Source of the DNA: a virus
Taxonomy: Duplodnaviria > Heunggongvirae > Uroviricota > Caudoviricetes
Reading direction: 5' to 3' (one strand)
Virus record (IMG/VR): IMGVR_UViG_2548876940_000013
Location: 1 to 24,224 of that record
Length of the DNA stretch: 24,224 nucleotides
A program made the translations under genes and the position numbers. The notes below the pieces were generated by a model that was given only the letters and a program-made list of their open reading frames with translations, ran no database searches and was not told the origin of the DNA. Below are positions 3,271-19,213 of this stretch, one piece after another. Position 1 is the first letter of the stretch; every line of letters starts with the position of its first letter.

Positions 3271-4293
3271 ATGGCAAAATTAAATGCTAGCGAAAGACTC
3301 GTTACTCATCATAGTCTGACCATTGACACAAAGTTTAGAACCAAGGCAACACAAGAGGTAAAAGCCCAGTGTATATGTCCTGTTCCGGAAATGTACATGC
3401 TTGCCCCATTGATTGTTAAACAAAAGGGACTCGTTCATTCATATGATTCTGGGAATATTGTAGTTACTCTCCAAGATGTACAACTTTATCCTTTACTTCC
3501 AGATAACTCACCCACGCATATTGTCCTTCTTATTAATAGTGTTGATAAAAATGGAAGTACTACCGTTGTAAAAAATATAAATACTAATGAACGCGTTGAA
3601 ATCCAACCAAAATATGAACAAGGTGAAGGCTATGAAGTTTCTACCTATGTTGTCATATCATTAAATGGAAATAAAAGAACCTATGATATGATTTGTACAT
3701 CTACCCCAGGTGTATCTACGGCCCGGTTAAATAGTTTTTTAGACAAAATTCTCTTTGAAGTGGCGAAAGACAATGAAGACTTATTTACCGCAAAACATCC
3801 AACTAACGTTATTTCTGCAACATCAAAAAAAGAAGTAAAAATACGATACAAACCAATATTTGAATTTACAGGAATGTTAGACAAGGAGCTTTTTAATAAA
3901 ATAAGCCAAAAAGGATTATCAGATGTCATATTAGTCAAGGATCAATTCGGAACAATTAATGCTCCTGATGTTAATTCACCTTACATTCCGACTGAAAGTA
4001 CATTAAAATTACTTCCAAATCATGGTGACAATGTTATTGGATGGATTAAAAATGTAGCATCTCATTTCAATAAAAAAATGAATGGTGGTTATGATAAATT
4101 AAAGGTTAAATTCCAAGATCCTGAAACAAATAAACCAAGGCAGGTTGATTTCAAAACCTCAAACATCAATCTTAATAATTTAGAAAAAACATTTATTAAG
4201 AAAAGCATTATCGATAACTTTAATTCGCGCCTGAAGGATTCATATGTTAAAATTGAACTAGAGTTTGTTGTGAAAATGATAGATTTGATGTGA
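3271..4293 (+). CDS. Hypothetical 340-aa soluble protein, first gene of the Q-lysis cargo cassette (candidate defence/abortive-infection component)
   Basis: Clean 340-aa ORF with ATG start, visibly AT-rich, antisense to the late operon. Lys/Asn-rich; no motif I recognise. Confidence 0.6.
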   Translation: MAKLNASERLVTHHSLTIDTKFRTKATQEVKAQCICPVPEMYMLAPLIVKQKGLVHSYDSGNIVVTLQDVQLYPLLPDNSPTHIVLLINSVDKNGSTTVVKNINTNERVEIQPKYEQGEGYEVSTYVVISLNGNKRTYDMICTSTPGVSTARLNSFLDKILFEVAKDNEDLFTAKHPTNVISATSKKEVKIRYKPIFEFTGMLDKELFNKISQKGLSDVILVKDQFGTINAPDVNSPYIPTESTLKLLPNHGDNVIGWIKNVASHFNKKMNGGYDKLKVKFQDPETNKPRQVDFKTSNINLNNLEKTFIKKSIIDNFNSRLKDSYVKIELEFVVKMIDLM

Positions 4294-4300
4294 GGTTATT

Positions 4301-4885
4301 ATGCCAATACTTTCAGTTTTCTCTCATCTAGGCAAGCCGTTTGGATATCTTTTTATTAAAGGTATTAGCGGCAAAGCTGCATATGATTGGGTAGCACCAA
4401 TTCTACTTACTTCTATCACAGCAGTACTTTTCATTCTATTAAAAATCCCTGTCAAAGATTTATTTGATGACAATGGTTTCATTAAATCAATCGTTTCATT
4501 TATCTCTAACCTACCAGGGTTTTATATTGCCGCTCTGGCCGCCATAGCAACTTTCAATAGAGCTGAGATTGATTTACCATTGATTAGCAATGAAAGAAAT
4601 GCCTCTATTGAAATAAAAGTAACAAAAGAAAATGGAAAAGTAGTAAATTCAGAGGAGGTTCTGACCAGACGATTATTTCTTTGCATGCTATTCTCTTTTT
4701 TAACAGCATTAAGCATTGTTATAATAATACTTAATGCTATATTTTCACCATTAATCAATGTCTATCAAAACAGTATTGTTTTAATGGTTTATACTGTTGT
4801 ATTTACTTTCCTAGTTTGGCAACTCTTAGTATCAACTTTCTTTGGATTATATTATCTCGGAAACAGAATTCATATGAATTATTAA
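4301..4885 (+). CDS. Hypothetical 194-aa integral membrane protein (about four TM helices), second gene of the cargo cassette
   Basis: ATG 7 nt after the stop of the upstream gene, with the SD gagg overlapping that stop (operon). Four hydrophobic segments, roughly aa 30-50, 60-85, 125-148 and 159-186. Confidence 0.6.
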   Translation: MPILSVFSHLGKPFGYLFIKGISGKAAYDWVAPILLTSITAVLFILLKIPVKDLFDDNGFIKSIVSFISNLPGFYIAALAAIATFNRAEIDLPLISNERNASIEIKVTKENGKVVNSEEVLTRRLFLCMLFSFLTALSIVIIILNAIFSPLINVYQNSIVLMVYTVVFTFLVWQLLVSTFFGLYYLGNRIHMNY

Positions 4886-9396: not shown

Positions 9397-9575
9397 AGGA
9401 CTGTCTCCTTCTGCCGGTTGAAATCACCCACAGCCCACTCTGCAAAGCTGTGGGTTACAATTTCCCTGTCACCTGGTACATTCACTGCATAGCAATATTC
9501 CACCTTCGCTTTTCCACCCGGTACAGGAAGCGCAATCAGTTGCGAGCGACGGTAGTGTGTTGTTAAACTGTTCAT
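9237..9575 (-). CDS. Hypothetical protein (112-aa ORF; the C-terminal half looks low-complexity and may be the wrong frame)
   Basis: ATG at 9575 with SD ggagaaa, overlapping the upstream stop (ATGA). The N-terminal 55 aa look plausible; the Ser-rich remainder overlaps the better-looking 9217-9396 frame. Confidence 0.35.
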
Positions 9576-10162
9576 GCGTTAGTTTCTCCACAACCAGAAG
9601 CAATCGACGCCACGACGCCCGGAGCTGCACACTCGCGGGCGTCATTACTTTCTGAAATGCAAAAAATTTTGTAGACAAGTGCTGCATGCTCCTGCAGCTT
9701 CGAAATTGAGAGATACAGCTCGTCGTTAATTGCTGTCTTCTCATGCGGTTCCACTACGCCGTCTTCGATTGCTGAACGAATCTGTTTTGAATAACTGCCG
9801 ATCTGTTCAATGACTTCCAGCAGACGCTGGTTAATATCGGCGTTGTCCACATCCTCGACGTCAGGAAGAGACACAAAGACGCCATTTGCAGACTGCGCCA
9901 CAGCATCAGCAATGAAGTGAGTGCCACCAGCACGCTGTAAAACCATTGCCCATCCCAGCGGGAAAATCTGATCGCCATCTGCACGAAGGCGGTTGAATAA
10001 AGCGTTCTCTGTTACATCCAGCCAGTCAGCGGCTTCAGCGTAACCCCCCGGCAACGCCGCGATAGTTTTTCTGACAGCTTTCACGTACCACTCAGGCTGT
10101 TTTTCTATTTTCCAGTGATGCTTACCCACGGCTATCTCCTTAAAACTGTGGTTACTTTTCAT
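9572..10162 (-). CDS. Hypothetical early regulatory protein (CII/YdaT-position)
   Basis: Occupies the slot after the cro-like gene. The track start (TTG 10234) overlaps the cro-like gene, so the ATG at 10162 is preferred. No motif recognised. Confidence 0.4.
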
Positions 10163-10400
10163 CTGATGAATCTTTAATCTTTTGAAAAATATCTGGACGT
10201 AATTTTTCTTTTGATATGCCAGTGGTCTTTTCAATGAATATCGAGAGCTTTGCAGGGGGACGCTTTTCTCTGTTCAACCAGTTCCAGACATGTTGTTGCT
10301 TTACTAAATGACCGCTGCTGGCTGTGAGCTTCCGAGCCAATTCTGATTGACCACCAGCCAGAGCGATTGCCTCCGATAAGGCTAATTGCTCAGGTGTCAT
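10152..10400 (-). CDS. Cro/YdaS-like HTH regulator
   Basis: 82 aa with the HTH ALAGGQSELARKLTASSGHLVKQQHVWNW. Strong SD aaggagaaa. Divergent from the CI-like repressor across an operator-containing spacer. Confidence 0.7.
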   Translation of the reverse strand: MTPEQLALSEAIALAGGQSELARKLTASSGHLVKQQHVWNWLNREKRPPAKLSIFIEKTTGISKEKLRPDIFQKIKDSSDEK

Positions 10401-10535
10401 AGCTTTCTCCTTTTTTGGTAGTTAAGTTGTTACGAGCTGCAAGAATACAACATTAACAACTTTTACCACAACTTTTAGGTGTTGGAAAGCTAAAACATAA
10501 AGTTGTAACCTCATCAAAAAAGAGAGGGATATGTT
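10401..10535. promoter_or_regulatory. OR-like divergent promoter/operator region between the cro-like and CI-like genes
   Basis: 135-bp spacer with repeated acaactttt units and the inverted copy aaagttgt (caacttttaccacaacttttaggtgttgg ... cataaagttgtaacc). Confidence 0.5.
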
Positions 10536-11222
10536 GTGAAAACACTGGCAGAACGATTAAAGATAGGTAGAGAGAAAGCTGGCATGAGCCAAGCTCAACT
10601 AGCTGAAAAAATTGGACTTTCACAACAATCTGTAGCCAAAATAGAGAATGGCGAAACTCTACAACCGCGCAAAATTAAAGAAATTGCAAAAGTTTTAGGT
10701 GTATCACAAAAGTGGTTACAACTTGGTATTGAAGACAACGCATCCATACCTGATCTTGTTGTAAAAGAAGCAGAAAGCACCGCATTAGACCCCGATATTT
10801 TCGTAAACATTCCTGTTTTAGATGTCGAGTTATCGGCAGGTAACGGATGTCTGGCTGAAATAGTTGAATCAGCTATTGACTGGTTTCCGTTAAGAAGAGC
10901 AGATTTGAGAAAATCTGGCGTATGTGCATCTAATGCCAAGATCGTACAAATATGGGGGAACAGTTTATTACCGGTTCTCAATAATGGAGATCTTGTTGCC
11001 GTTGATATTTCTCAAACCGTTCCTATTCGTGATGGCGATCTTTATGCCGTACGAGATGGTGTATTGCTAAGGGTTAAAATACTTATCAACTTACCTGACG
11101 GTGGCTTGATTCTTAGAAGCTTCAACAAAGATGAGTACCCAGATGAAATACTCACCTTTGAAGATAGACGAGCCAGAATTCATGTTATAGGTAGGGTATT
11201 CTGGTCATCGCGAACTTGGTAA
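10536..11222 (+). CDS. CI-like prophage repressor (XRE-type HTH plus S24 LexA-like peptidase domain)
   Basis: N-terminal HTH (MSQAQLAEKIGLSQQSVAKIENGE) and C-terminal S24 fold with Ser (GNSLLPV) and Lys (LRVKIL) in the expected places. GTG start with SD agagaggg. Confidence 0.85.
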   Translation: MKTLAERLKIGREKAGMSQAQLAEKIGLSQQSVAKIENGETLQPRKIKEIAKVLGVSQKWLQLGIEDNASIPDLVVKEAESTALDPDIFVNIPVLDVELSAGNGCLAEIVESAIDWFPLRRADLRKSGVCASNAKIVQIWGNSLLPVLNNGDLVAVDISQTVPIRDGDLYAVRDGVLLRVKILINLPDGGLILRSFNKDEYPDEILTFEDRRARIHVIGRVFWSSRTW

Positions 11223-12095
11223 TGCATCGAAAAGCATTTCTTCAGAAATAATTTTAAGTTTTGCACCATTATCATCCCTATAAGATATAGCCTTTTCGAT
11301 CTTCCTTCCGTGACTAGAGAATTTCCAATCACGGGAGGAAAGCGTCCCAATTACTAAAAAATCCAACTTTTGAGTAATTCCACTACTGATGTTCCCACCA
11401 GCATTTTTAATCAAATTTTCAACTACGGCTCTCTTTCCTGCAACAAAAGTGCCTGTAAGACAATAGGTTTTACCCTCTAACTCTATCGAAGCCCCTACAT
11501 CAATAGGCAGCCTGGTCGCCAAACCATCCACCACCCCACTTTCCAAGTCACATCCTGTGAAGTCTACTAATGCCTTATGTAGAGTTAAACTCTCATCTTC
11601 AGTAATAACACCATCTTTAAGAATTTCCTTTACAAGTGCATAAAGTTTTTTTCCTGGGTAGTTGTTCTTCAAAGCTCCATTTTGCTCAAGCCACCAATTA
11701 AGATATCTTATTTCTTCTTGAGTTAAGTTCCGATCAGCAATTAATCCTTTACATAGTCCATTAAGTAAATGGACATCTACATCCTTGGAGTAAAAATCAA
11801 TTTCAGGGATATCAAGAATTTCCCTCTGTATTTGGAGAAGACTATTTTTAAGGTCATCACGTTCTTCTGATGTGATTATTCCATCCACAAGAATATCCGA
11901 CACCCGTGCAGATAGACTTTTTATAACTCCATTATTGATAATCTGCTTTGCTTCAAGTAACCATGTATCTAAGTAAAGAACCTCCTCTTCACGGACAACT
12001 CCATCTGCAATGATTCCATCAATGATGCTAATCAAGTTAGCAAATAACTTGTCCCGGTTCTGTGTGTAATTAAAAGCGTAAAGCGCGTCTTCCAT
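11205..12095 (-). CDS. TerB-like-repeat / BRCT-domain protein in the immunity region (candidate exclusion/defence factor)
   Basis: C-terminal BRCT signature GKTYCLTGTFVAGKRAVVENLIKNAGGNISSGITQKLDFLVIGT...KLKIISEEMLFDAL, as in the LigA BRCT. N-terminus has four repeats of about 38 aa with the motif [IL]xDG[IV][IV]TxEE. ATG at 12095 with SD aaggagg; track start is GTG 12125. Confidence 0.7.
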   Translation of the reverse strand: MEDALYAFNYTQNRDKLFANLISIIDGIIADGVVREEEVLYLDTWLLEAKQIINNGVIKSLSARVSDILVDGIITSEERDDLKNSLLQIQREILDIPEIDFYSKDVDVHLLNGLCKGLIADRNLTQEEIRYLNWWLEQNGALKNNYPGKKLYALVKEILKDGVITEDESLTLHKALVDFTGCDLESGVVDGLATRLPIDVGASIELEGKTYCLTGTFVAGKRAVVENLIKNAGGNISSGITQKLDFLVIGTLSSRDWKFSSHGRKIEKAISYRDDNGAKLKIISEEMLFDALPSSR

Positions 12096-12300
12096 ACAAC
12101 CTCCTTTTTTTGATAATCCTTGCACTCCTTGGCTACTCGTTCAAACCACATAAAGTTGTTGACAACATTCAAAACCACAACTAAATTACAACTTAAAGGT
12201 GTTAAGACAACGAACAGGCAGGACGCCCACGAAGTAGCCGCTTGGGGCATATGAAGTCCAGGATGATTCGTTGAGTCATGTTGTGCCACTAGGCACTCAT
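12096..12300. promoter_or_regulatory. OL-like operator/promoter region (candidate pL driving + strand early-left genes, with a divergent promoter for the BRCT gene)
   Basis: Contains the near-palindrome aaagttgttgacaac and the motif acaacttaaaggtgtt, which match the units in the cro/cI spacer. Confidence 0.4.
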
Positions 12301-12319
12301 GTTAAAGCAGGTGTATGAA

Positions 12320-12595
12320 ATGAAAGTCCAGATTTTAAACAATAACTGTGAAGTCGTTTGGTCATACGACATAGCCGCCCCTGTAGATCAGAGCGGCGAT
12401 AGCTGGACCAATGGGAAACATCAGATTATGGCTGGAGTTGTGTTCTCTTTACGCCGTGCTTTGGAACAGGCTGAAGTATTTCCATCAGACCCTGAATGGA
12501 AATGGCCTTTTTCTATTTGTCCAAATTCGGAGAGCACATTTCAGAAAATTGGTCAGAAAGTCGCACTCGAAGAGCATCAGCCAACTGTTTCCTGA
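12320..12595 (+). CDS. Hypothetical early-left protein
   Basis: ATG at 12320 with SD aggtg; the track start at 12299 has no SD. The 3-prime end overlaps a - strand ORF, so one of the two may be spurious. Confidence 0.4.
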   Translation: MKVQILNNNCEVVWSYDIAAPVDQSGDSWTNGKHQIMAGVVFSLRRALEQAEVFPSDPEWKWPFSICPNSESTFQKIGQKVALEEHQPTVS

Positions 12596-12758
12596 TTTTT
12601 TCAGGTAACTCGTCGGCATCGCAGAAACAACAACGCTCGATCATGTTGAAAGCCGATTCGTAGAACTGTTTCTGCTGAGTGTCGCTGAGACAGGAAAAGA
12701 GCGACGTTACGATGATTTTATTAATTGCATTATCAAATTCTTTTTCATCAAAAGTCAT
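12513..12758 (-). CDS. Hypothetical small protein
   Basis: 81-aa ORF with SD aaggaaa before the ATG. Product looks protein-like (acidic, Cys motif CCFCDADE). Confidence 0.35.
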   Translation of the reverse strand: MTFDEKEFDNAINKIIVTSLFSCLSDTQQKQFYESAFNMIERCCFCDADELPEKIRKQLADALRVRLSDQFSEMCSPNLDK

Positions 12759-15168: not shown

Positions 15169-15414
15169 ATGCTTCAAATGCTGACACTTGAGGAATGGGC
15201 TGCGGAAAAATTTAGGAGTAATCCTCCAAGTGTGTCCACATTGCGCCGTTATGCTAAGCAGAATTTATTTTGTCCACCGGCAATGAAACAAGGTCGACTA
15301 TGGCGAGTGCGTGAGGACGCAGAGTTAGTTGGGGAATTAGTTACCCCTGTCATCAAGAAAAGTGATTCTATTATTCTACAAAGGATTTTAAGTAATGGCA
15401 GCCAGACCACGTAA
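15169..15414 (+). CDS. xis: Excisionase (lambda Xis-like)
   Basis: MLTLEEWAAEKFRSNPPSVSTLRRYAKQNLFCPPAMKQGRLWRVRED parallels lambda Xis (MYLTLQEWNARQRRPRSLETVRRWVRECRIFPPPVKDGREY). The 3-prime end overlaps the int start. Start could be 15154, 15169 or 15178. Confidence 0.75.
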   Translation: MLQMLTLEEWAAEKFRSNPPSVSTLRRYAKQNLFCPPAMKQGRLWRVREDAELVGELVTPVIKKSDSIILQRILSNGSQTT

Positions 15415-16522
15415 AAATAATGTTTCAGTCCCGAACTTGTATCCGCTCTATAGCAGAAAAGTAAATAAAGTCTATTGGCGATATAAGCATCCAGTGACCG
15501 GGAAGTTTCATTCTTTGGGCACAAACGAAGCTGAAGCCATTGCCATTGCCACTGAGGCCAATACACGCCTGGCTGAGCAAAGAACCCGGCAGATTCTGGC
15601 TATCAGTGACAGGATCGCAACCAACAAAGGAAAAGCAATCACAACGTCAACCTGGTTAGATCGCTATCAAGCAATCCAGGATGACAGACTGAAAAGTGGC
15701 GATATAAAGCTCAACACCTATAAACAGAAAGCCAAACCAGTATCCTTGCTCAGGGAACGAGCAGGACTGAAGTTAATTTCAGCCGTTGATGTCAGGGATA
15801 TAGCCCAGTTGCTTGACGAGTATATCGCCGCCGGACAGCCGAGAATGGCGCAAGTAGTTCGCTCCGTCCTGATTGATGTTTTCAAAGAGGCACAGCACTA
15901 CGGAGAAGTACCTCCTGGCTATAACCCGGCATTAGCTACTAAACAGCCAAGAAGAAAAATTACACGACAGCGGCTAAGTCTTGAAGAATGGCAAAAAATC
16001 TTTGATATCGCAGATGCCAGTCATCGCTACATGGGAAATGCCATGCTGCTAGCATTGGTTACTGGTCAGCGGTTAGGTGATATTTCACGTATGAAATTTA
16101 GCGATATTTGGGATGATCATCTTCACGTCATCCAGGAAAAAACCGGGAGCAAAATCGCCATCCCGCTTTCTCTTCGTCTCAACGCGATTAACTGGAGTTT
16201 ACGCGATGTAGTCGCCCGCTGCCGTGACTATGCAGTCAGCCCATACCTTGTACATTTTTTCCGTACTACTTCACAAGCTGAACGTGGCGCGCAGGTTAAA
16301 TCCAATACATTGACCATGAATTTCAGTAAAGCGAGGGATTTAGCAGGAATTGACTGGGGTGATGGCTCACCCGCAACATTCCATGAACAAAGGTCTTTAT
16401 CTGAACGTCTGTACAAAGAACAGGGGTTAGACACACAAAAACTGCTTGGTCATAAAACGCAACAACAAACCGATCGTTATCATGACGATCGCGGCAAAGG
16501 ATGGAGCAAAGTAGCGTTGTGA
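15395..16522 (+). CDS. int: Lambda-family tyrosine integrase
   Basis: 375 aa collinear with lambda Int: arm-binding N-terminus (NLYPLYSRKVNKVYWRY), ALVTGQRLGDISRMKFSDI, KTGSKIAIPLS, and the C-terminal HEQRSLSERLY...LLGHK...YHDDRG with the catalytic Tyr region. Confidence 0.95.
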   Translation: MAARPRKNNVSVPNLYPLYSRKVNKVYWRYKHPVTGKFHSLGTNEAEAIAIATEANTRLAEQRTRQILAISDRIATNKGKAITTSTWLDRYQAIQDDRLKSGDIKLNTYKQKAKPVSLLRERAGLKLISAVDVRDIAQLLDEYIAAGQPRMAQVVRSVLIDVFKEAQHYGEVPPGYNPALATKQPRRKITRQRLSLEEWQKIFDIADASHRYMGNAMLLALVTGQRLGDISRMKFSDIWDDHLHVIQEKTGSKIAIPLSLRLNAINWSLRDVVARCRDYAVSPYLVHFFRTTSQAERGAQVKSNTLTMNFSKARDLAGIDWGDGSPATFHEQRSLSERLYKEQGLDTQKLLGHKTQQQTDRYHDDRGKGWSKVAL

Positions 16523-16744: not shown

Positions 16745-19213
16745 CTATGATTTAGGTAAGTACTGTTTTAGTTTGTCAATAAATTGATCGATCTCTGCAG
16801 AAGTGAGTTCTGTTAGCTCACGTTTGCATATACCTACTGCCTCATCAAATCTCGAAGTTAAAGTTAACCAAATAGCTTTAAACCTTATAAAACTGCCGTA
16901 TGTTTGAGATTTAGGTGAATCAGTTTTTTCAAGAATTCCAATAGCATACTCTAATTTATCAATTCTTTTATATTGTATAGCTAGGTCACAGAGCGTTAAA
17001 ACAGGATATTTTATATCAGGAAAGTCCATGATCCCATTTTCAATTAGGGTAAATGATTCATCAACTTTATTATCAAACCTAGCAAGTGCCTTAGCTTTGG
17101 CGGAGCAATAAATTTCCTGTGCGCGTTGGGCTTGATTCGATTTTAGTCGTTCAAGTATATCCTCTACTAAACCTGGTTCAATATGTGAATCATCCTTGTA
17201 AAAAAGGCAGTTTAAATAATTATTAGCATTTATTGGATTATTTTTCTGCCTTTCATAAACTTCCTTCGCCAATCCCAAAGCAAGTTCGTGCTCATCATTC
17301 TGTAAATACAACAATACCAGTTCACTTTTTGAACGGTGGTCATTAGGTCTTTGCCTTAAAACTCGCTTATAGCTCTCAATTGCCCGAGAACGTTGGCGTG
17401 TTATTCTAAAATAAAAACCATGCAGGAATGAACTTTCTGGTTCAGGAACATCTCGTACCGCATTAAAAAACTCTCGATCATGCAGTCTTGCTAGAGACTG
17501 GCATTTCATAAATAATATGTGTTCTATAACATTTGAATGCATATATTGAGCATTTGAAAGAATCTGATCAGCTAATCTCACAGCTTCTTTATAGTTCGCA
17601 GATCCACCTTTTTCGTATAATGATCTTATTGTTTTTACAAAATATGAAGGAACTAACACTCGACTATCTATATCTTTACCGGTTTTTATAGCCTCCTGAA
17701 TGGAGAAAATATATTCCGAAATATCCCTATTGTTGTCTGTATATTCTTCAATGAACTTCTTAATATGCTTACTCAAAACATCATCATATTCACTGGTGGT
17801 TCCAAACTTACTTCTTGATATGTAATCCTGTATTACTTGGTTTACCCTGATATAATCATTATTCACACCTAATTGATCACATACAGACATATTGATGAAG
17901 TTTTGCGTAATTGGATAAAACTCCACTTCATCTACTAATGAAAAAAGGAACTCATAGCTAATGAATTCAAATTTTGAAAGGAAATATAAAAAATCTAACT
18001 TACGCTGATCATGGGAAAAACTTTCAACTATTACTTTTGCCTTATCATCAGCATATTCTCTTATTAAATGTGAATCTTTTTTCACTGAATAAAGGTTCGT
18101 ATCCGATATACTATCCACGGCAAAAAGAACTTGCTCTGGATAACCCGAAAGTAGGTCTGAGAAAAAACGCAGATCTTCAGGGCATAAATCTAAACCTTTA
18201 TATGTTGCATATCTTTTCAAAAGCCCTCGTCTTTCTTGAGTATTCAATTCAGGAATTTCTTCAAAGTAATACTCTGGATTTCTATAAGAAAATGTTTTAT
18301 TACCTCTAAACTTAGATGCTATACAGAAAGTCAAGTGACCATAATGTTTAATATGATCTGTAATCCTTACAAACCAACTTACAATTGTACTATCAGGTTG
18401 AACTATAGCTCCTTTATCTTCAATTAGGATTCGTTCTTTTTCTTCTATAATTCCTTCTATAAGCTTTACCGCAATATTAACTTTATCACTTATTGAAGTG
18501 GTCATTAAATCATGAATTTTACCAATATCGCATAAGCCAAGATCATTTATTTTTAAGATAAAGTCTTCTATACTATCTGAAGACTCGATTTGTATTATAG
18601 GAAATTCATAAGACTCTCTTATAGCATTAGATTTTATAAGAGCGTTCTTCATAAAAGATTTACGGCCAATTGAATCCAAACCTGAAGCAATAAAAACTAC
18701 AGGAGGAGATTTATCAAAGTCATCAAAACGTTGCTCAACGTTAGTCGTTTTCTCATTTCTACCCACAAATATTTTTTGTCTTTCTTTCAATGCAGGATGG
18801 GTTTTAAATGCAATCTCTCGTAGTCGAGCATTAATTTTTCTAATTGCAACGTTAGGCTTCCGAATTGGCTGAATATTAAAACCTTCCTTCATCCAGGATG
18901 GGACCCTTGGATCTGTAAAAGTTATTTTGTCATCTATTATAATTGGATAAATACGTTGCAGATGACCATCCTCTACTTTTTTCTTTGCTAAGCGCATTTC
19001 CTCTTTAACCCAATCAGACTCTAATGCAGAATCAGAAAGAAATAAAACAAAAAGAGATGTATCATCTAGCCCCTTTAATATTTCCTCTGATGGGGACATG
19101 CCTTTTTCAAAAGTCTGCTCATCGAAAATTCTAGTTTCTTTGCGAAGCCCTGAAGCAACAACTCGTACATAGTCCTTGTCTTTTGAACTATGTGAAAGAA
19201 AACATTTTATCAT
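16745..19213 (-). CDS. TIR-domain protein with a central NTPase-like region and C-terminal TPR-like repeats (STAND/NLR-like antiviral candidate)
   Basis: N-terminal TIR motifs (CFLSHSSKDKDYV; LFVLFLSDSALESDWVKEE with a candidate catalytic Glu). Middle region with a degenerate P-loop (FIASGLDSIGRKS) and a Walker-B-like ERILIED about 75 aa later. C-terminal roughly 300 aa of helical TPR-like repeats. Visibly AT-rich; sits between int and the icd-derived arm. Confidence 0.8.
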   Translation of the reverse strand: MIKCFLSHSSKDKDYVRVVASGLRKETRIFDEQTFEKGMSPSEEILKGLDDTSLFVLFLSDSALESDWVKEEMRLAKKKVEDGHLQRIYPIIIDDKITFTDPRVPSWMKEGFNIQPIRKPNVAIRKINARLREIAFKTHPALKERQKIFVGRNEKTTNVEQRFDDFDKSPPVVFIASGLDSIGRKSFMKNALIKSNAIRESYEFPIIQIESSDSIEDFILKINDLGLCDIGKIHDLMTTSISDKVNIAVKLIEGIIEEKERILIEDKGAIVQPDSTIVSWFVRITDHIKHYGHLTFCIASKFRGNKTFSYRNPEYYFEEIPELNTQERRGLLKRYATYKGLDLCPEDLRFFSDLLSGYPEQVLFAVDSISDTNLYSVKKDSHLIREYADDKAKVIVESFSHDQRKLDFLYFLSKFEFISYEFLFSLVDEVEFYPITQNFINMSVCDQLGVNNDYIRVNQVIQDYISRSKFGTTSEYDDVLSKHIKKFIEEYTDNNRDISEYIFSIQEAIKTGKDIDSRVLVPSYFVKTIRSLYEKGGSANYKEAVRLADQILSNAQYMHSNVIEHILFMKCQSLARLHDREFFNAVRDVPEPESSFLHGFYFRITRQRSRAIESYKRVLRQRPNDHRSKSELVLLYLQNDEHELALGLAKEVYERQKNNPINANNYLNCLFYKDDSHIEPGLVEDILERLKSNQAQRAQEIYCSAKAKALARFDNKVDESFTLIENGIMDFPDIKYPVLTLCDLAIQYKRIDKLEYAIGILEKTDSPKSQTYGSFIRFKAIWLTLTSRFDEAVGICKRELTELTSAEIDQFIDKLKQYLPKS

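What the first reader, a model, noticed from the sequence alone, without database searches (positions are those of the whole stretch)
11205..12095. TerB-like-repeat / BRCT protein in the rex position of the immunity region
Convergent with and overlapping the 3-prime end of the CI-like repressor gene is a 296-aa protein with four tandem repeats of about 38 aa (motif [IL]xDG[IV][IV]TxEE, similar to the ADG...EE motif of TerB-like domains) and a clear C-terminal BRCT domain (GKTYCLTGT...DFLVIGT...). In lambda this slot holds rexAB, which is expressed in the lysogen. BRCT domains bind nicked DNA, phosphorylated or ADP-ribosylated targets, and the ter operon is known to inhibit phages. I know of no characterised phage protein with this combination.
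Basis: partly seen in the sequence, partly recalled or inferred. Interest (0 to 1): 0.75.

Follow-up and report, generated by a model that had tools for sequence, protein, structure and literature searches.

The report
BRCT protein partnered with prophage repressor
A real, widely conserved but uncharacterised gene in the immunity region of this E. coli prophage encodes an acidic helical repeat domain joined to a DNA-end/nick-binding type BRCT domain. Its relatives sit beside the CI repressor in many temperate phages, so it probably acts in the lysogen, but its role (exclusion of other phages or control of induction) is untested.

Summary

The "four repeats" are one duplicated ~85-aa four-helix unit carrying two hxDGxhTxxE motifs per copy. 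The TerB link is sub-threshold, and the N-domain has no convincing PDB neighbour.

The gene lies between cI and OL/PL. SfV and SfII have nothing there. It is on the strand opposite cI, so it cannot be co-transcribed with cI as rexAB is.

The new result is the linkage to CI:
- All 80 IMG/VR relatives (≥55% identity) converge on and overlap an HTH+S24 CI.
- 18 of 27 distant loci have CI upstream on the same strand, often as CI, this gene, variable cargo, integrase.
- Vibrio phage K139 Orf2 (33% identity) sits in the annotated lysogenic operon cI-orf2-glo-int.

The same module fused to a DEDDh exonuclease is the PADLOC candidate PDC-S48.

Best guess (about 0.4): a lysogen-expressed, non-enzymatic binder of 5'-phosphate DNA discontinuities that excludes incoming phages. 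The main rival is a modulator of induction.

The parts
11205..12095 (-). CDS of the 296-aa repeat-BRCT protein (the RefSeq allele WP_000389078 differs by one residue; PHROG 3989)
11814..12068 (-). N-terminal helical unit A (residues 10-94): four helices, motifs IADGVVREEE (29) and LVDGIITSEE (69)
11556..11786 (-). Helical unit B (residues 104-180): a duplicate of unit A, motifs IADRNLTQEE (119) and LKDGVITEDE (159)
   Evidence: E=2e-12 between the units
11484..11555 (-). Highly conserved linker (residues 181-204, within the conserved DFTGCDL..G..DG.ATRLP stretch). It is ordered only when the BRCT is present: pLDDT 93-96 in the full model against 42-56 in the N-terminal-only model
11223..11483 (-). 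BRCT domain (residues 205-291). T214-G215, R222 and W257 are nearly invariant across the family (K265 in the wider 88-sequence alignment); R255 is conserved in most members
11205..11222 (.). 18-nt overlap of the 3' ends of cI (+) and the BRCT gene (-). An overlap of a few to 18 nt is kept in all 88 loci with the convergent arrangement
12100..12104 (-). Shine-Dalgarno GGAGG, 4 nt before the ATG
12116..12144 (-). Putative weak promoter of the gene: -35 TTGAAC (12144-12139), 17-nt spacer, extended -10 TGcAAGGAT (12124-12116). It is conserved in the Serratia loci and the near-identical 'Pseudomonas' record, and is below the scan threshold. Inference only
12159..12187 (+). PL-like promoter (TTGACA-17-TAAATT) of the early-left operon, divergent from the BRCT gene. 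Operator-like heptamers ACAAC[T/A]T lie at 12153-12194
10536..11222 (+). CI-like repressor (HTH_3 + Peptidase_S24, 228 aa), the constant partner of the gene
10152..10400 (-). Cro-position YdaS-family HTH gene, divergent from cI. The OR region lies at 10401-10535

Best explanation
SHOWN. The gene encodes a compact two-module protein with no recognisable catalytic domain. The first module is a strongly acidic all-alpha N-domain (net charge -15, pI 4.5) built from a duplicated four-helix unit with four hxDGxhTxxE helix-turn motifs. The second is a single mildly basic BRCT domain whose closest sequence matches are RFC1 and LigA and whose structural matches also include PARP1. The T-G...R residues that align with RFC1 are conserved.

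The gene is cargo in the immunity region of an E. coli lambdoid prophage. Across temperate phages its family is a constant neighbour of an S24-type CI repressor. It lies either just downstream on the same strand, in cI-X-(variable cargo)-int lysogeny operons such as K139 cI-orf2-glo-int, or, in the enterobacterial clade containing this window, inverted so that it converges on and overlaps cI.

INFERRED. The protein is made in the lysogen. In this window that would be from its own weak promoter with an extended -10 element, placed next to the OL operators.

HYPOTHESISED MECHANISM. The BRCT docks on 5'-phosphorylated DNA discontinuities such as nicks, recessed ends or annealed cos ends of incoming phage genomes. 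It thereby blocks their sealing and circularisation, or hands them to a host nuclease through the acidic domain. That would give superinfection exclusion at no cost to the resident prophage, which excises as a circle. In other bacteria the same targeting module is fused directly to a DEDDh 3'-5' exonuclease (PADLOC candidate PDC-S48).
For: Architecture and fold: BRCT; duplicated helical unit; acidic N-domain, family median -17.5, and basic BRCT.

Phosphate-pocket residues: T214, G215 and R222 align with RFC1 T415, G416 and R423 and are nearly invariant across the family. R255 aligns with RFC1 K458 and is conserved in most members. The roles of the RFC1 residues come from my memory of Kobayashi et al. 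2006/2010.

Slot: SfV and SfII have only a terminator between cI and the shared PL leader. GC is 0.38-0.39 here against about 0.51-0.55 in the replication and late-regulatory genes to the left.

Linkage to CI:
- All 80 IMG/VR loci with >=55% identity, plus the convergent genome and contig loci fetched earlier, are convergent and overlapping (88 loci).
- Of 27 distant loci, 18 have CI upstream on the same strand, 11 of them immediately adjacent. Eleven have int downstream.
- L007 and Seminibacterium, cro/CI/X/int, show the same layout.
- K139 Orf2 matches at 33% identity over 95% of the length, E=1e-38. It sits in the operon whose PL promoter and 'lysogenic transcription start site' are annotated in the GenBank record, next to the exclusion gene glo.

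Accessory nature: an E. coli prophage with a 92.5%-identical CI keeps only a 19-aa remnant of the gene.

Link to a candidate defence gene: PDC-S48 is a DEDDh exonuclease plus one helical unit plus BRCT, and the window protein matches profile positions 239-377 of 411.

The same prophage region carries other defence cargo (TIR-NLR, PDC-M53).
Against: - There are no expression data for this gene. No sigma-70 promoter on its strand passes the scan threshold.
- The gene opposes cI, so its transcript would be antisense to cI. It could equally be CI-repressed and expressed only on induction.
- It has no effector domain.
- The PADLOC match is partial and PDC-S48 is itself only a candidate.
- The gene keeps a fixed place beside cI while the cargo between it and int varies. 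That pattern fits a regulatory partner of CI at least as well as a defence gene.
- DNA binding by this BRCT is inferred only from alignment.
- The ligand of the N-domain is unknown.
- No paper in the searchable library characterises the family.
Confidence: 0.4

Rival explanations
1. The protein is a partner of the CI repressor in the lysis-lysogeny circuit. It would sense DNA damage at 5'-phosphate gap or nick junctions, the same substrate on which RecFOR loads RecA. It would raise or lower the threshold for RecA-stimulated self-cleavage of the S24 CI, or otherwise tune induction. On this view it is not a defence gene.
For: - The family holds a constant position directly beside an S24-type CI in both lambdoid and P2/K139-like phages, while neighbouring cargo varies.
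- CI and the gene diverge together as one cassette: 47 of 47 E. coli genomes that carry the gene also carry the >=99%-identical CI allele.
- The 3' overlap with cI is conserved down to 55% identity.
- A 2026 preprint notes, from annotation only, cI/BRCT cassettes replacing quorum-sensing modules in Roseobacter prophages and reads them as DNA-damage responsive (PMC13345283).
Against: - One prophage keeps the CI but has lost the gene.
- SfV and SfII-type immunity regions, and most S24 CI repressors, work without such a partner.
- Adjacency to the repressor is also typical of defence cargo, because it gives lysogen-specific expression (rexAB; BstA, from memory).
- There is no evidence of a CI-BRCT contact.
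Confidence: 0.25
2. In this lambdoid clade the gene is an early gene de-repressed on induction. Its promoter lies within OL and is shut by CI. Its transcript runs antisense through cI to lock in the lytic decision. The protein would protect or process phage DNA nicks and ends, or act as a nuclease-free decoy against host exonuclease-BRCT (PDC-S48-like) defences. That would make it an anti-defence or DNA-metabolism role.
For: - Convergent orientation with overlapping 3' ends and no strong terminator between the genes.
- The putative promoter sits among the operator-like heptamers, next to PL.
- The protein is the targeting part of PDC-S48 without the nuclease.
Against: - In most distant relatives the gene shares a strand and an operon with cI and int, which implies expression in the lysogen. 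A conserved protein function would then require a switch in timing.
- There is no evidence that E. coli hosts carry PDC-S48-type genes.
- The promoter and its regulation are not demonstrated.
Confidence: 0.12
3. It is a fragment or relic of an NAD-dependent DNA ligase or of a DnaQ-like polymerase subunit, as several database records name it, with no function of its own.
For: Some sources name homologues 'NAD-dependent DNA ligase' or 'DNA polymerase'. NCBIfam LigA and PRK06195 models match weakly.
Against: - The matches cover only the BRCT region (model positions 584-634 of 652) and score 28.5 bits against a cutoff of 444.
- There is no adenylation, OB, Zn or HhH domain.
- The full-length architecture is conserved, intact, in hundreds of clusters with 77% mean column identity.
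- The model is confident as one compact unit (pTM 0.91).
Confidence: 0.01

Closest known systems
Orf2 of Vibrio cholerae phage K139 / kp3 of phage Kappa (NP_536630; 'BRCT domain-containing protein')
   Same: Same full-length architecture: 301 aa, 33% identity over 95% of the query, E=1e-38. It also lies next to CI in the lysogeny module.
   Different: - In K139 it is downstream of cI on the same strand, inside the annotated lysogenic operon cI-orf2-glo-int of a P2-like phage.
- In this window it is inverted, overlaps cI, and lies far from int in a lambdoid prophage.
- Orf2 has no assigned function. The 1999 paper (PMC93736) could not be read here.
PADLOC candidate defence gene PDC-S48 (DEDDh exonuclease + helical unit + BRCT)
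   Same: The helical unit and BRCT match profile positions 239-377 of 411 (E=8.7e-7). Relatives with an RNase_T domain match the whole profile (E 1e-28 to 1e-33).
   Different: - The window protein lacks the exonuclease, the only enzymatic part, and has two helical units instead of one.
- PDC-S48 is a computational candidate. I found no paper that tests it.
lambda rexAB (and other repressor-linked exclusion genes such as K139 glo, P22 sieA/sieB, BTP1 bstA)
   Same: It occupies the slot between cI and OL/PL. The family is typically linked to the repressor, which is how such genes obtain lysogen-specific expression. A non-essential, low-GC accessory gene.
   Different: - No sequence relation to RexA/RexB (no Pfam, PHROG or PADLOC match to them).
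- One soluble protein rather than a sensor plus a membrane channel.
- Opposite strand to cI in this window.
- The exclusion phenotype is untested.
BRCT domains of RFC1 p140, bacterial LigA and PARP1 (DNA 5'-phosphate / nick-binding BRCTs)
   Different: This is a stand-alone BRCT fused to an acidic helical domain, with no clamp-loader, ligase or PARP catalytic module. DNA binding is not demonstrated.
TerB / TerB-like domains (PF05099; structure 2ou3)
   Same: The acidic D-G-x5-E motif is repeated in helix-turn-helix hairpins. Nine of 88 relatives hit PF05099 and two hit DUF533 at E<0.01.

Membership tests
BRCT (Pfam PF00533) | Score above the Pfam gathering threshold | tested here: met
   29.2 bits against a cutoff of 21.3, E=1.1e-6, residues 206-290. 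73 of 88 relatives also hit.
BRCT (Pfam PF00533) | BRCT alpha/beta fold | tested here: met
BRCT, DNA 5'-phosphate-binding subtype (RFC1/LigA-like) | Conserved T/S-G, basic residue and Lys/Arg of the phosphate pocket | tested here: met
   T214-G215 and R222 align with RFC1 T415-G416 and R423, and R255 with K458. T214, G215 and R222 are nearly invariant across the family, and R255 is conserved in most members. The residue roles are from memory, not from a tool.
BRCT, DNA 5'-phosphate-binding subtype (RFC1/LigA-like) | Actual binding to 5'-phosphorylated nicked or recessed DNA | not testable with these tools
   Needs EMSA or fluorescence anisotropy with 5'-P against 5'-OH substrates.
TerB (Pfam PF05099) | Score above the Pfam gathering threshold (24.4 bits) | tested here: not met
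   No hit for the window protein or its N-terminal 200 aa at E<=1. The family consensus scores 20.6 bits, E=5.7e-4. Nine of 88 relatives hit at E<0.01, best 9.5e-5.
TerB (Pfam PF05099) | TerB-like fold | tested here: inconclusive
PADLOC PDC-S48 | N-terminal DEDDh (RNase_T) exonuclease domain | tested here: not met
   The window protein matches only profile positions 239-377 of 411 and has no RNase_T Pfam hit. True members P0166, P0169 and P0238 have the domain.
PADLOC PDC-S48 | Helical unit + BRCT C-terminal module | tested here: met
   E=8.7e-7 over residues 119-251.
rexAB-type repressor-linked exclusion cassette | Located between cI and OL/PL | tested here: met
   cI 10536-11222, gene 11205-12095, PL 12159-12187. 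The slot is empty in SfV and SfII.
rexAB-type repressor-linked exclusion cassette | Co-transcribed with cI from the maintenance promoter | tested here: not met
   Opposite strand to cI in this window and in all 88 loci with the convergent arrangement. The feature is met by gene order in K139, L007, L014 and 18 of 27 distant loci.
rexAB-type repressor-linked exclusion cassette | Homology to RexA/RexB | tested here: not met
   No such family among the Pfam, PHROG, NCBIfam or PADLOC hits.
rexAB-type repressor-linked exclusion cassette | Excludes superinfecting phages | not testable with these tools
   Needs plaque assays on deletion and complemented lysogens.
PHROG 3989 | Full-length profile match | tested here: met
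   E=5.7e-128, residues 2-295 against profile 2-295 of 296, category 'unknown function'.
NAD-dependent DNA ligase LigA (the name given by some records) | Equivalog score and adenylation/OB/Zn/HhH domains | tested here: not met
   TIGR00575 scores 28.5 bits against a cutoff of 444, and only model positions 584-634 (the BRCT) match.

The most novel reading that the evidence does not exclude
This family would be a new class of lysogeny factor, widespread in temperate phages of Proteobacteria and wired to the CI repressor gene. It would be a non-enzymatic sensor that reads 5'-phosphate DNA discontinuities through an RFC1/LigA-type BRCT and acts through a previously undescribed acidic duplicated helical domain. 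It would either block end-sealing and circularisation of superinfecting genomes (an exclusion mechanism harmless to a prophage that excises as a circle) or set the SOS induction threshold. In the lambdoid clade an inverted, cI-overlapping arrangement would add antisense coupling to the switch.
Probability: 0.3. Interest if true: 0.75.

Novelty: new variant of a known kind. Interest (0 to 1): 0.55.

Why it matters
Repressor-linked genes such as rexAB, sieB, bstA and glo have repeatedly proved to be prophage-encoded immunity functions. This family is at least as widespread: 1073 clusters at 50% identity for the N-domain. It spans lambdoid and P2/K139-like phages and has stayed uncharacterised since K139 Orf2 was sequenced in 1999.

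It has no catalytic domain, so any phenotype would point to a binding or blocking mechanism at DNA ends or nicks, or to a new input into the CI switch.

The work also gives a functional lead for the PADLOC candidate PDC-S48, as a targeting module plus an exonuclease. It corrects the recurrent 'DNA ligase' and 'DNA polymerase' mis-annotations. It also shows a cargo hotspot between this gene and int in K139-like phages.

Tried and rejected
- Foldseek against AFDB50 was not available.
- The search for related loci with the diverse alignment A2 failed for lack of a conserved stretch. The single genome-contig scan, run with A1, returned only 4 loci.
- The TerB assignment was tested three ways and not accepted as membership.
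- The LigA and DNA-polymerase names were rejected.
- Literature searches for PDC-S48, BRCT with prophage or defence terms, and K139 orf2 found no functional study. The K139 control-region paper (PMC93736) is not held.
- The long architectures with the same N-domain (P0184, 1070 aa) gave no Pfam, PADLOC or PDB match.
- I tried to define the CI operators. The heptamer ACAAC[T/A]T is enriched in OR and OL, but I could not derive a consistent palindromic operator. The idea that CI activates the gene's promoter in a PRM-like geometry therefore remains speculation.
Full report
**1. What is in the sequence**

The window is an E. coli lambdoid prophage. Bases 10400-12700 are 100% identical to E. coli NRZ14408 and a second record, and ≥98.6% identical over ≥98% of their length in 20 further complete genomes. 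In total, 47 genomes hold most of this segment.

The RefSeq annotation of the matching locus reads as follows:
- Leftward: a YdaS-family cro-position gene, ymfL (CII-like), replication genes, Q and lysis genes.
- Rightward: a 228-aa HTH/S24 repressor.
- After the target gene: the early-left genes yfdP, yfdQ and yfdR, running towards int.

The target ORF ends at 11205 on the minus strand. The mechanical ORF begins at a GTG at 12125. Three things fix the product at 296 aa (11205-12095):
- the ATG at 12095;
- the GGAGG 4 nt upstream of it;
- the common start of all homologues.

This agrees with the CDS that RefSeq labels "BRCT domain-containing protein". The window allele differs from the common allele by one residue.

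The gene's 3' end overlaps the 3' end of cI (10536-11222, +) by 18 nt. GC is 0.38-0.39 over 10501-12000, against about 0.51-0.55 in the replication and late-regulatory genes to the left.

**2. The protein**

*BRCT domain*
- Pfam places a BRCT domain at residues 206-290, above the gathering threshold.
- A profile built from 88 family members finds the BRCT domains of RFC1 (E=6.5e-9), Rad4/TopBP1 and bacterial LigA in the PDB.
- AlphaFold2 on that alignment gives a compact model: pLDDT 94.5, pTM 0.91, with nine helices in residues 10-180 followed by a four-stranded BRCT.
- In the pairwise alignment to RFC1, T214-G215, R222 and R255 fall on T415-G416, R423 and K458. To my recollection these are the 5'-phosphate-binding residues of RFC1 (Kobayashi et al.).
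- T214, G215 and R222 are nearly invariant across the family, and R255 is conserved in most members.

*N-terminal domain*
- The unit of repetition is a duplicated two-motif, four-helix segment. Residues 10-95 against 104-185 give 39% identity, E=2e-12.
- The N-domain is strongly acidic, with net charge -15 and pI 4.5 (family median -17.5). The BRCT is mildly basic.
- The linker at residues 181-204, within the conserved DFTGCDL..G..DG.ATRLP stretch, is almost invariant. It is ordered only in the full-length model, so it probably packs on the BRCT.

**3. Is the N-domain TerB-like?**

Only marginally.
- The window protein has no Pfam TerB hit even at E<=1.
- Nine of 88 relatives hit PF05099 and two hit DUF533 at E<0.01.
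- The HMM consensus of the family scores 20.6 bits, against a cutoff of 24.4. That is no better than unrelated helical families.
- The motif also brushes the SHOCT_2 and EF-hand models. The same motif, [10 protein letters not shown], occurs in the neighbouring CII-like YmfL.

I therefore treat the motif as a helix-turn capping motif of uncertain ancestry, and the domain as uncharacterised.

**4. The slot**

A PL-like promoter (TTGACA-17-TAAATT, 12159-12187, +) lies 64 nt beyond the gene's start. Operator-like heptamers ACAAC[T/A]T cluster in the cro-cI intergenic region and around this promoter.

From 12205 rightward the sequence is shared with SfV, SfII, SfIV, ST64B and others. In SfV and SfII, cI is followed by a terminator and then directly by that shared segment.

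So the gene is cargo inserted between cI and OL/PL, the place where lambda carries rexAB. It lies on the other strand, however, and cannot be transcribed with cI.

Its own promoter must lie within about 12096-12205. The only candidate is weak: -35 TTGAAC, a 17-nt spacer, then TGcAAGGAT. It is conserved in the Serratia loci and in the near-identical record labelled Pseudomonas lundensis, but it is below the scan threshold. Whether CI represses, activates or ignores it cannot be decided here.

**5. Relatives and their neighbourhoods (the main new result)**

The full-length family is common in Enterobacterales prophages. The N-domain alone defines 1073 clusters at 50% identity, most of them about 295-305 aa long.

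*Close relatives*
- In every one of 80 IMG/VR loci with ≥55% identity, and in the Serratia, Salmonella and Citrobacter loci, the gene converges on and overlaps an HTH+S24 repressor of about 228 aa. That makes 88 loci.
- In complete E. coli genomes the CI allele occurs in 48 genomes and the gene in 47.
- The odd one out has a CI 92.5% identical in protein and only a 19-aa remnant of the gene. The gene is therefore dispensable for that CI.

*Distant relatives (31-58% identity to K139 Orf2, the query of the second scan)*

Here the orientation is usually the other way round. Of 27 distinct IMG/VR loci:

| Arrangement | Loci |
|---|---|
| CI immediately upstream, same strand | 11 |
| CI upstream, same strand, with one or two ORFs between | 7 |
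| Convergent with CI | 3 |
| No CI detected | 6 |

Eleven of the 27 continue into an integrase on the same strand.

- A Seminibacterium prophage reads cro(-) / cI / this gene / int. A metagenomic lambdoid has the gene 56 nt after cI.
- Vibrio phage K139 Orf2 is a full-length homologue: 33% identity, 95% coverage, E=1e-38. It lies in the operon cI-orf2-glo-int. The GenBank record annotates that operon's promoter as "transcription of lysogenic operon", with a mapped lysogenic start site. glo is annotated as involved in phage exclusion.
- The genes between the family member and int vary: a K+ channel, membrane proteins, a second BRCT protein, and the PADLOC candidate PDC-M41A. The family member itself stays beside cI.

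*Shorter versions*

Pseudomonas phages carry a shorter version with one helical unit plus BRCT, lying next to int. A Sulfurimonas phage carries one next to cII.

**6. Other architectures**

The same helical unit plus BRCT is fused to an N-terminal DEDDh (RNase_T) exonuclease in proteins of 445-500 aa. These match the PADLOC candidate PDC-S48 over its whole length. The window protein matches only profile positions 239-377 of 411.

Proteins of about 1070 aa carry the N-domain with an unknown C-terminal region.

**7. Mechanism**

*Shown*
- A two-module protein with no recognisable catalytic domain and a BRCT of the DNA-binding type.
- A conserved genetic coupling to CI, and by gene order to lysogeny operons.

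*Inferred*
- Expression in the lysogen. This rests on gene order and the GenBank promoter annotation for K139, and is uncertain for this window.

*Hypothesis I favour (about 0.4)*
- The BRCT binds 5'-phosphate discontinuities on incoming genomes, such as cos ends, nicks or recessed ends.
- This prevents sealing or recruits a nuclease, and so gives exclusion.
- The exonuclease fusions would be the self-contained version of the same logic.

*Main rival (about 0.25)*
- A DNA-damage input to the CI switch. The fixed position beside cI, while other cargo varies, favours this reading.

*Third reading (about 0.12)*
- An early gene that is antisense to cI, with an end-protection or anti-defence role.

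*Rejected*
- The "ligase/polymerase fragment" reading.

**8. Comparison with what is known, and novelty**

The family is recorded as PHROG 3989, K139 Orf2 and the RefSeq "BRCT domain-containing protein". I found no functional study of it. One 2026 preprint remarks in passing on cI/BRCT cassettes in Roseobacter prophages.

It is not a member of TerB, PDC-S48, RexAB or LigA by the tests listed in the membership section.

I rate it a new variant of a known kind: a repressor-linked prophage accessory gene. Interest is moderate (0.55). The linkage to CI across phage types and the unusual architecture are worth a bench test, but nothing here demonstrates a phenotype.

Noticed in passing
window 16745-19213 (-), next to the integrase at 15395-16522 (+): An 822-aa low-GC (0.31-0.35) gene matches the PADLOC TIR-NLR model over its full length (E=3.7e-166) and has an N-terminal Pfam TIR_2 domain. 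In strain NRZ14408 the equivalent place beside int holds a CHAT-domain protein instead. This looks like a variable defence hotspot at the int end of the prophage.
   Followed up: partly
window 3271-4293 (+) and 4301-4885 (+): A two-gene low-GC (~0.31) island matches the PADLOC candidate system PDC-M53A (E=2e-32) and PDC-M53B (E=1.8e-54). Neither gene has a Pfam family above threshold. NRZ14408 has cold-shock genes and ynfU in this region instead.
   Followed up: partly
window 9572-10234 (-), YmfL / CII-like (Pfam Phage_CP76): The CII-like protein carries the same helix-turn motif ([17 protein letters not shown]) as the four motifs of the target protein. The target gives weak hits to NCBIfam phage_reg_YmfL (E=7.7e-4) and to PHROG 6499 'transcriptional regulator' (E=1.7e-4). 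This is either shared ancestry of one hairpin or a convergent capping motif.
   Followed up: partly
window 12204-12273: A segment of about 65-70 bp just downstream of the PL-like promoter is conserved (83-97% identity) in many otherwise unrelated temperate phages: SfV, SfII, SfIV, ST64B, mEp460, Yersinia YeP1/2, and Klebsiella and Citrobacter phages. It contains a small GC hairpin at 12214-12230. It may be a nutL-like or leader element that also marks the recombination boundary of the immunity cassette.
   Followed up: no
L020 (E. coli RMDEC465) 3687-4450: A prophage with a 92.5%-identical CI has lost the BRCT gene, leaving a 19-aa remnant (residues 251-269) in an unannotated gap of about 760 bp. 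This is a natural deletion that could serve as a comparison strain.
   Followed up: partly
L101-L122 (IMG/VR K139-like loci), between the family gene and int: The cargo between the family gene and int varies:
- a voltage-gated-type K+ channel (L101);
- a DUF6056 membrane protein (L106);
- a second, unrelated BRCT protein with an N-terminus that looks WYL-like by eye (L112);
- the PADLOC candidate PDC-M41A (L122);
- several ORFs with no family.
   Followed up: partly
window ~13.6 kb onward compared with L001: The window lacks the IS1 insertion that NRZ14408 has between yfdP and yfdQ. It also differs from that strain in the cargo near int and near the lysis genes. The window therefore comes from a related but different prophage.
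   Followed up: no
P0026 / L011 (record labelled Pseudomonas lundensis strain I31): This record holds a 76%-identical copy with the same enterobacterial-type CI and an upstream region nearly identical to the Serratia locus. That suggests a mislabelled or contaminated assembly, or a very recent transfer.
   Followed up: no
window 10395-10540 and 12140-12205: The heptamer ACAACTT occurs 12 times in the window against 4.45 expected. It and its variant ACAACAT cluster in the OR and OL regions, in both orientations, with 9-12 bp spacings. I could not reduce these to a simple palindromic operator.
   Followed up: partly
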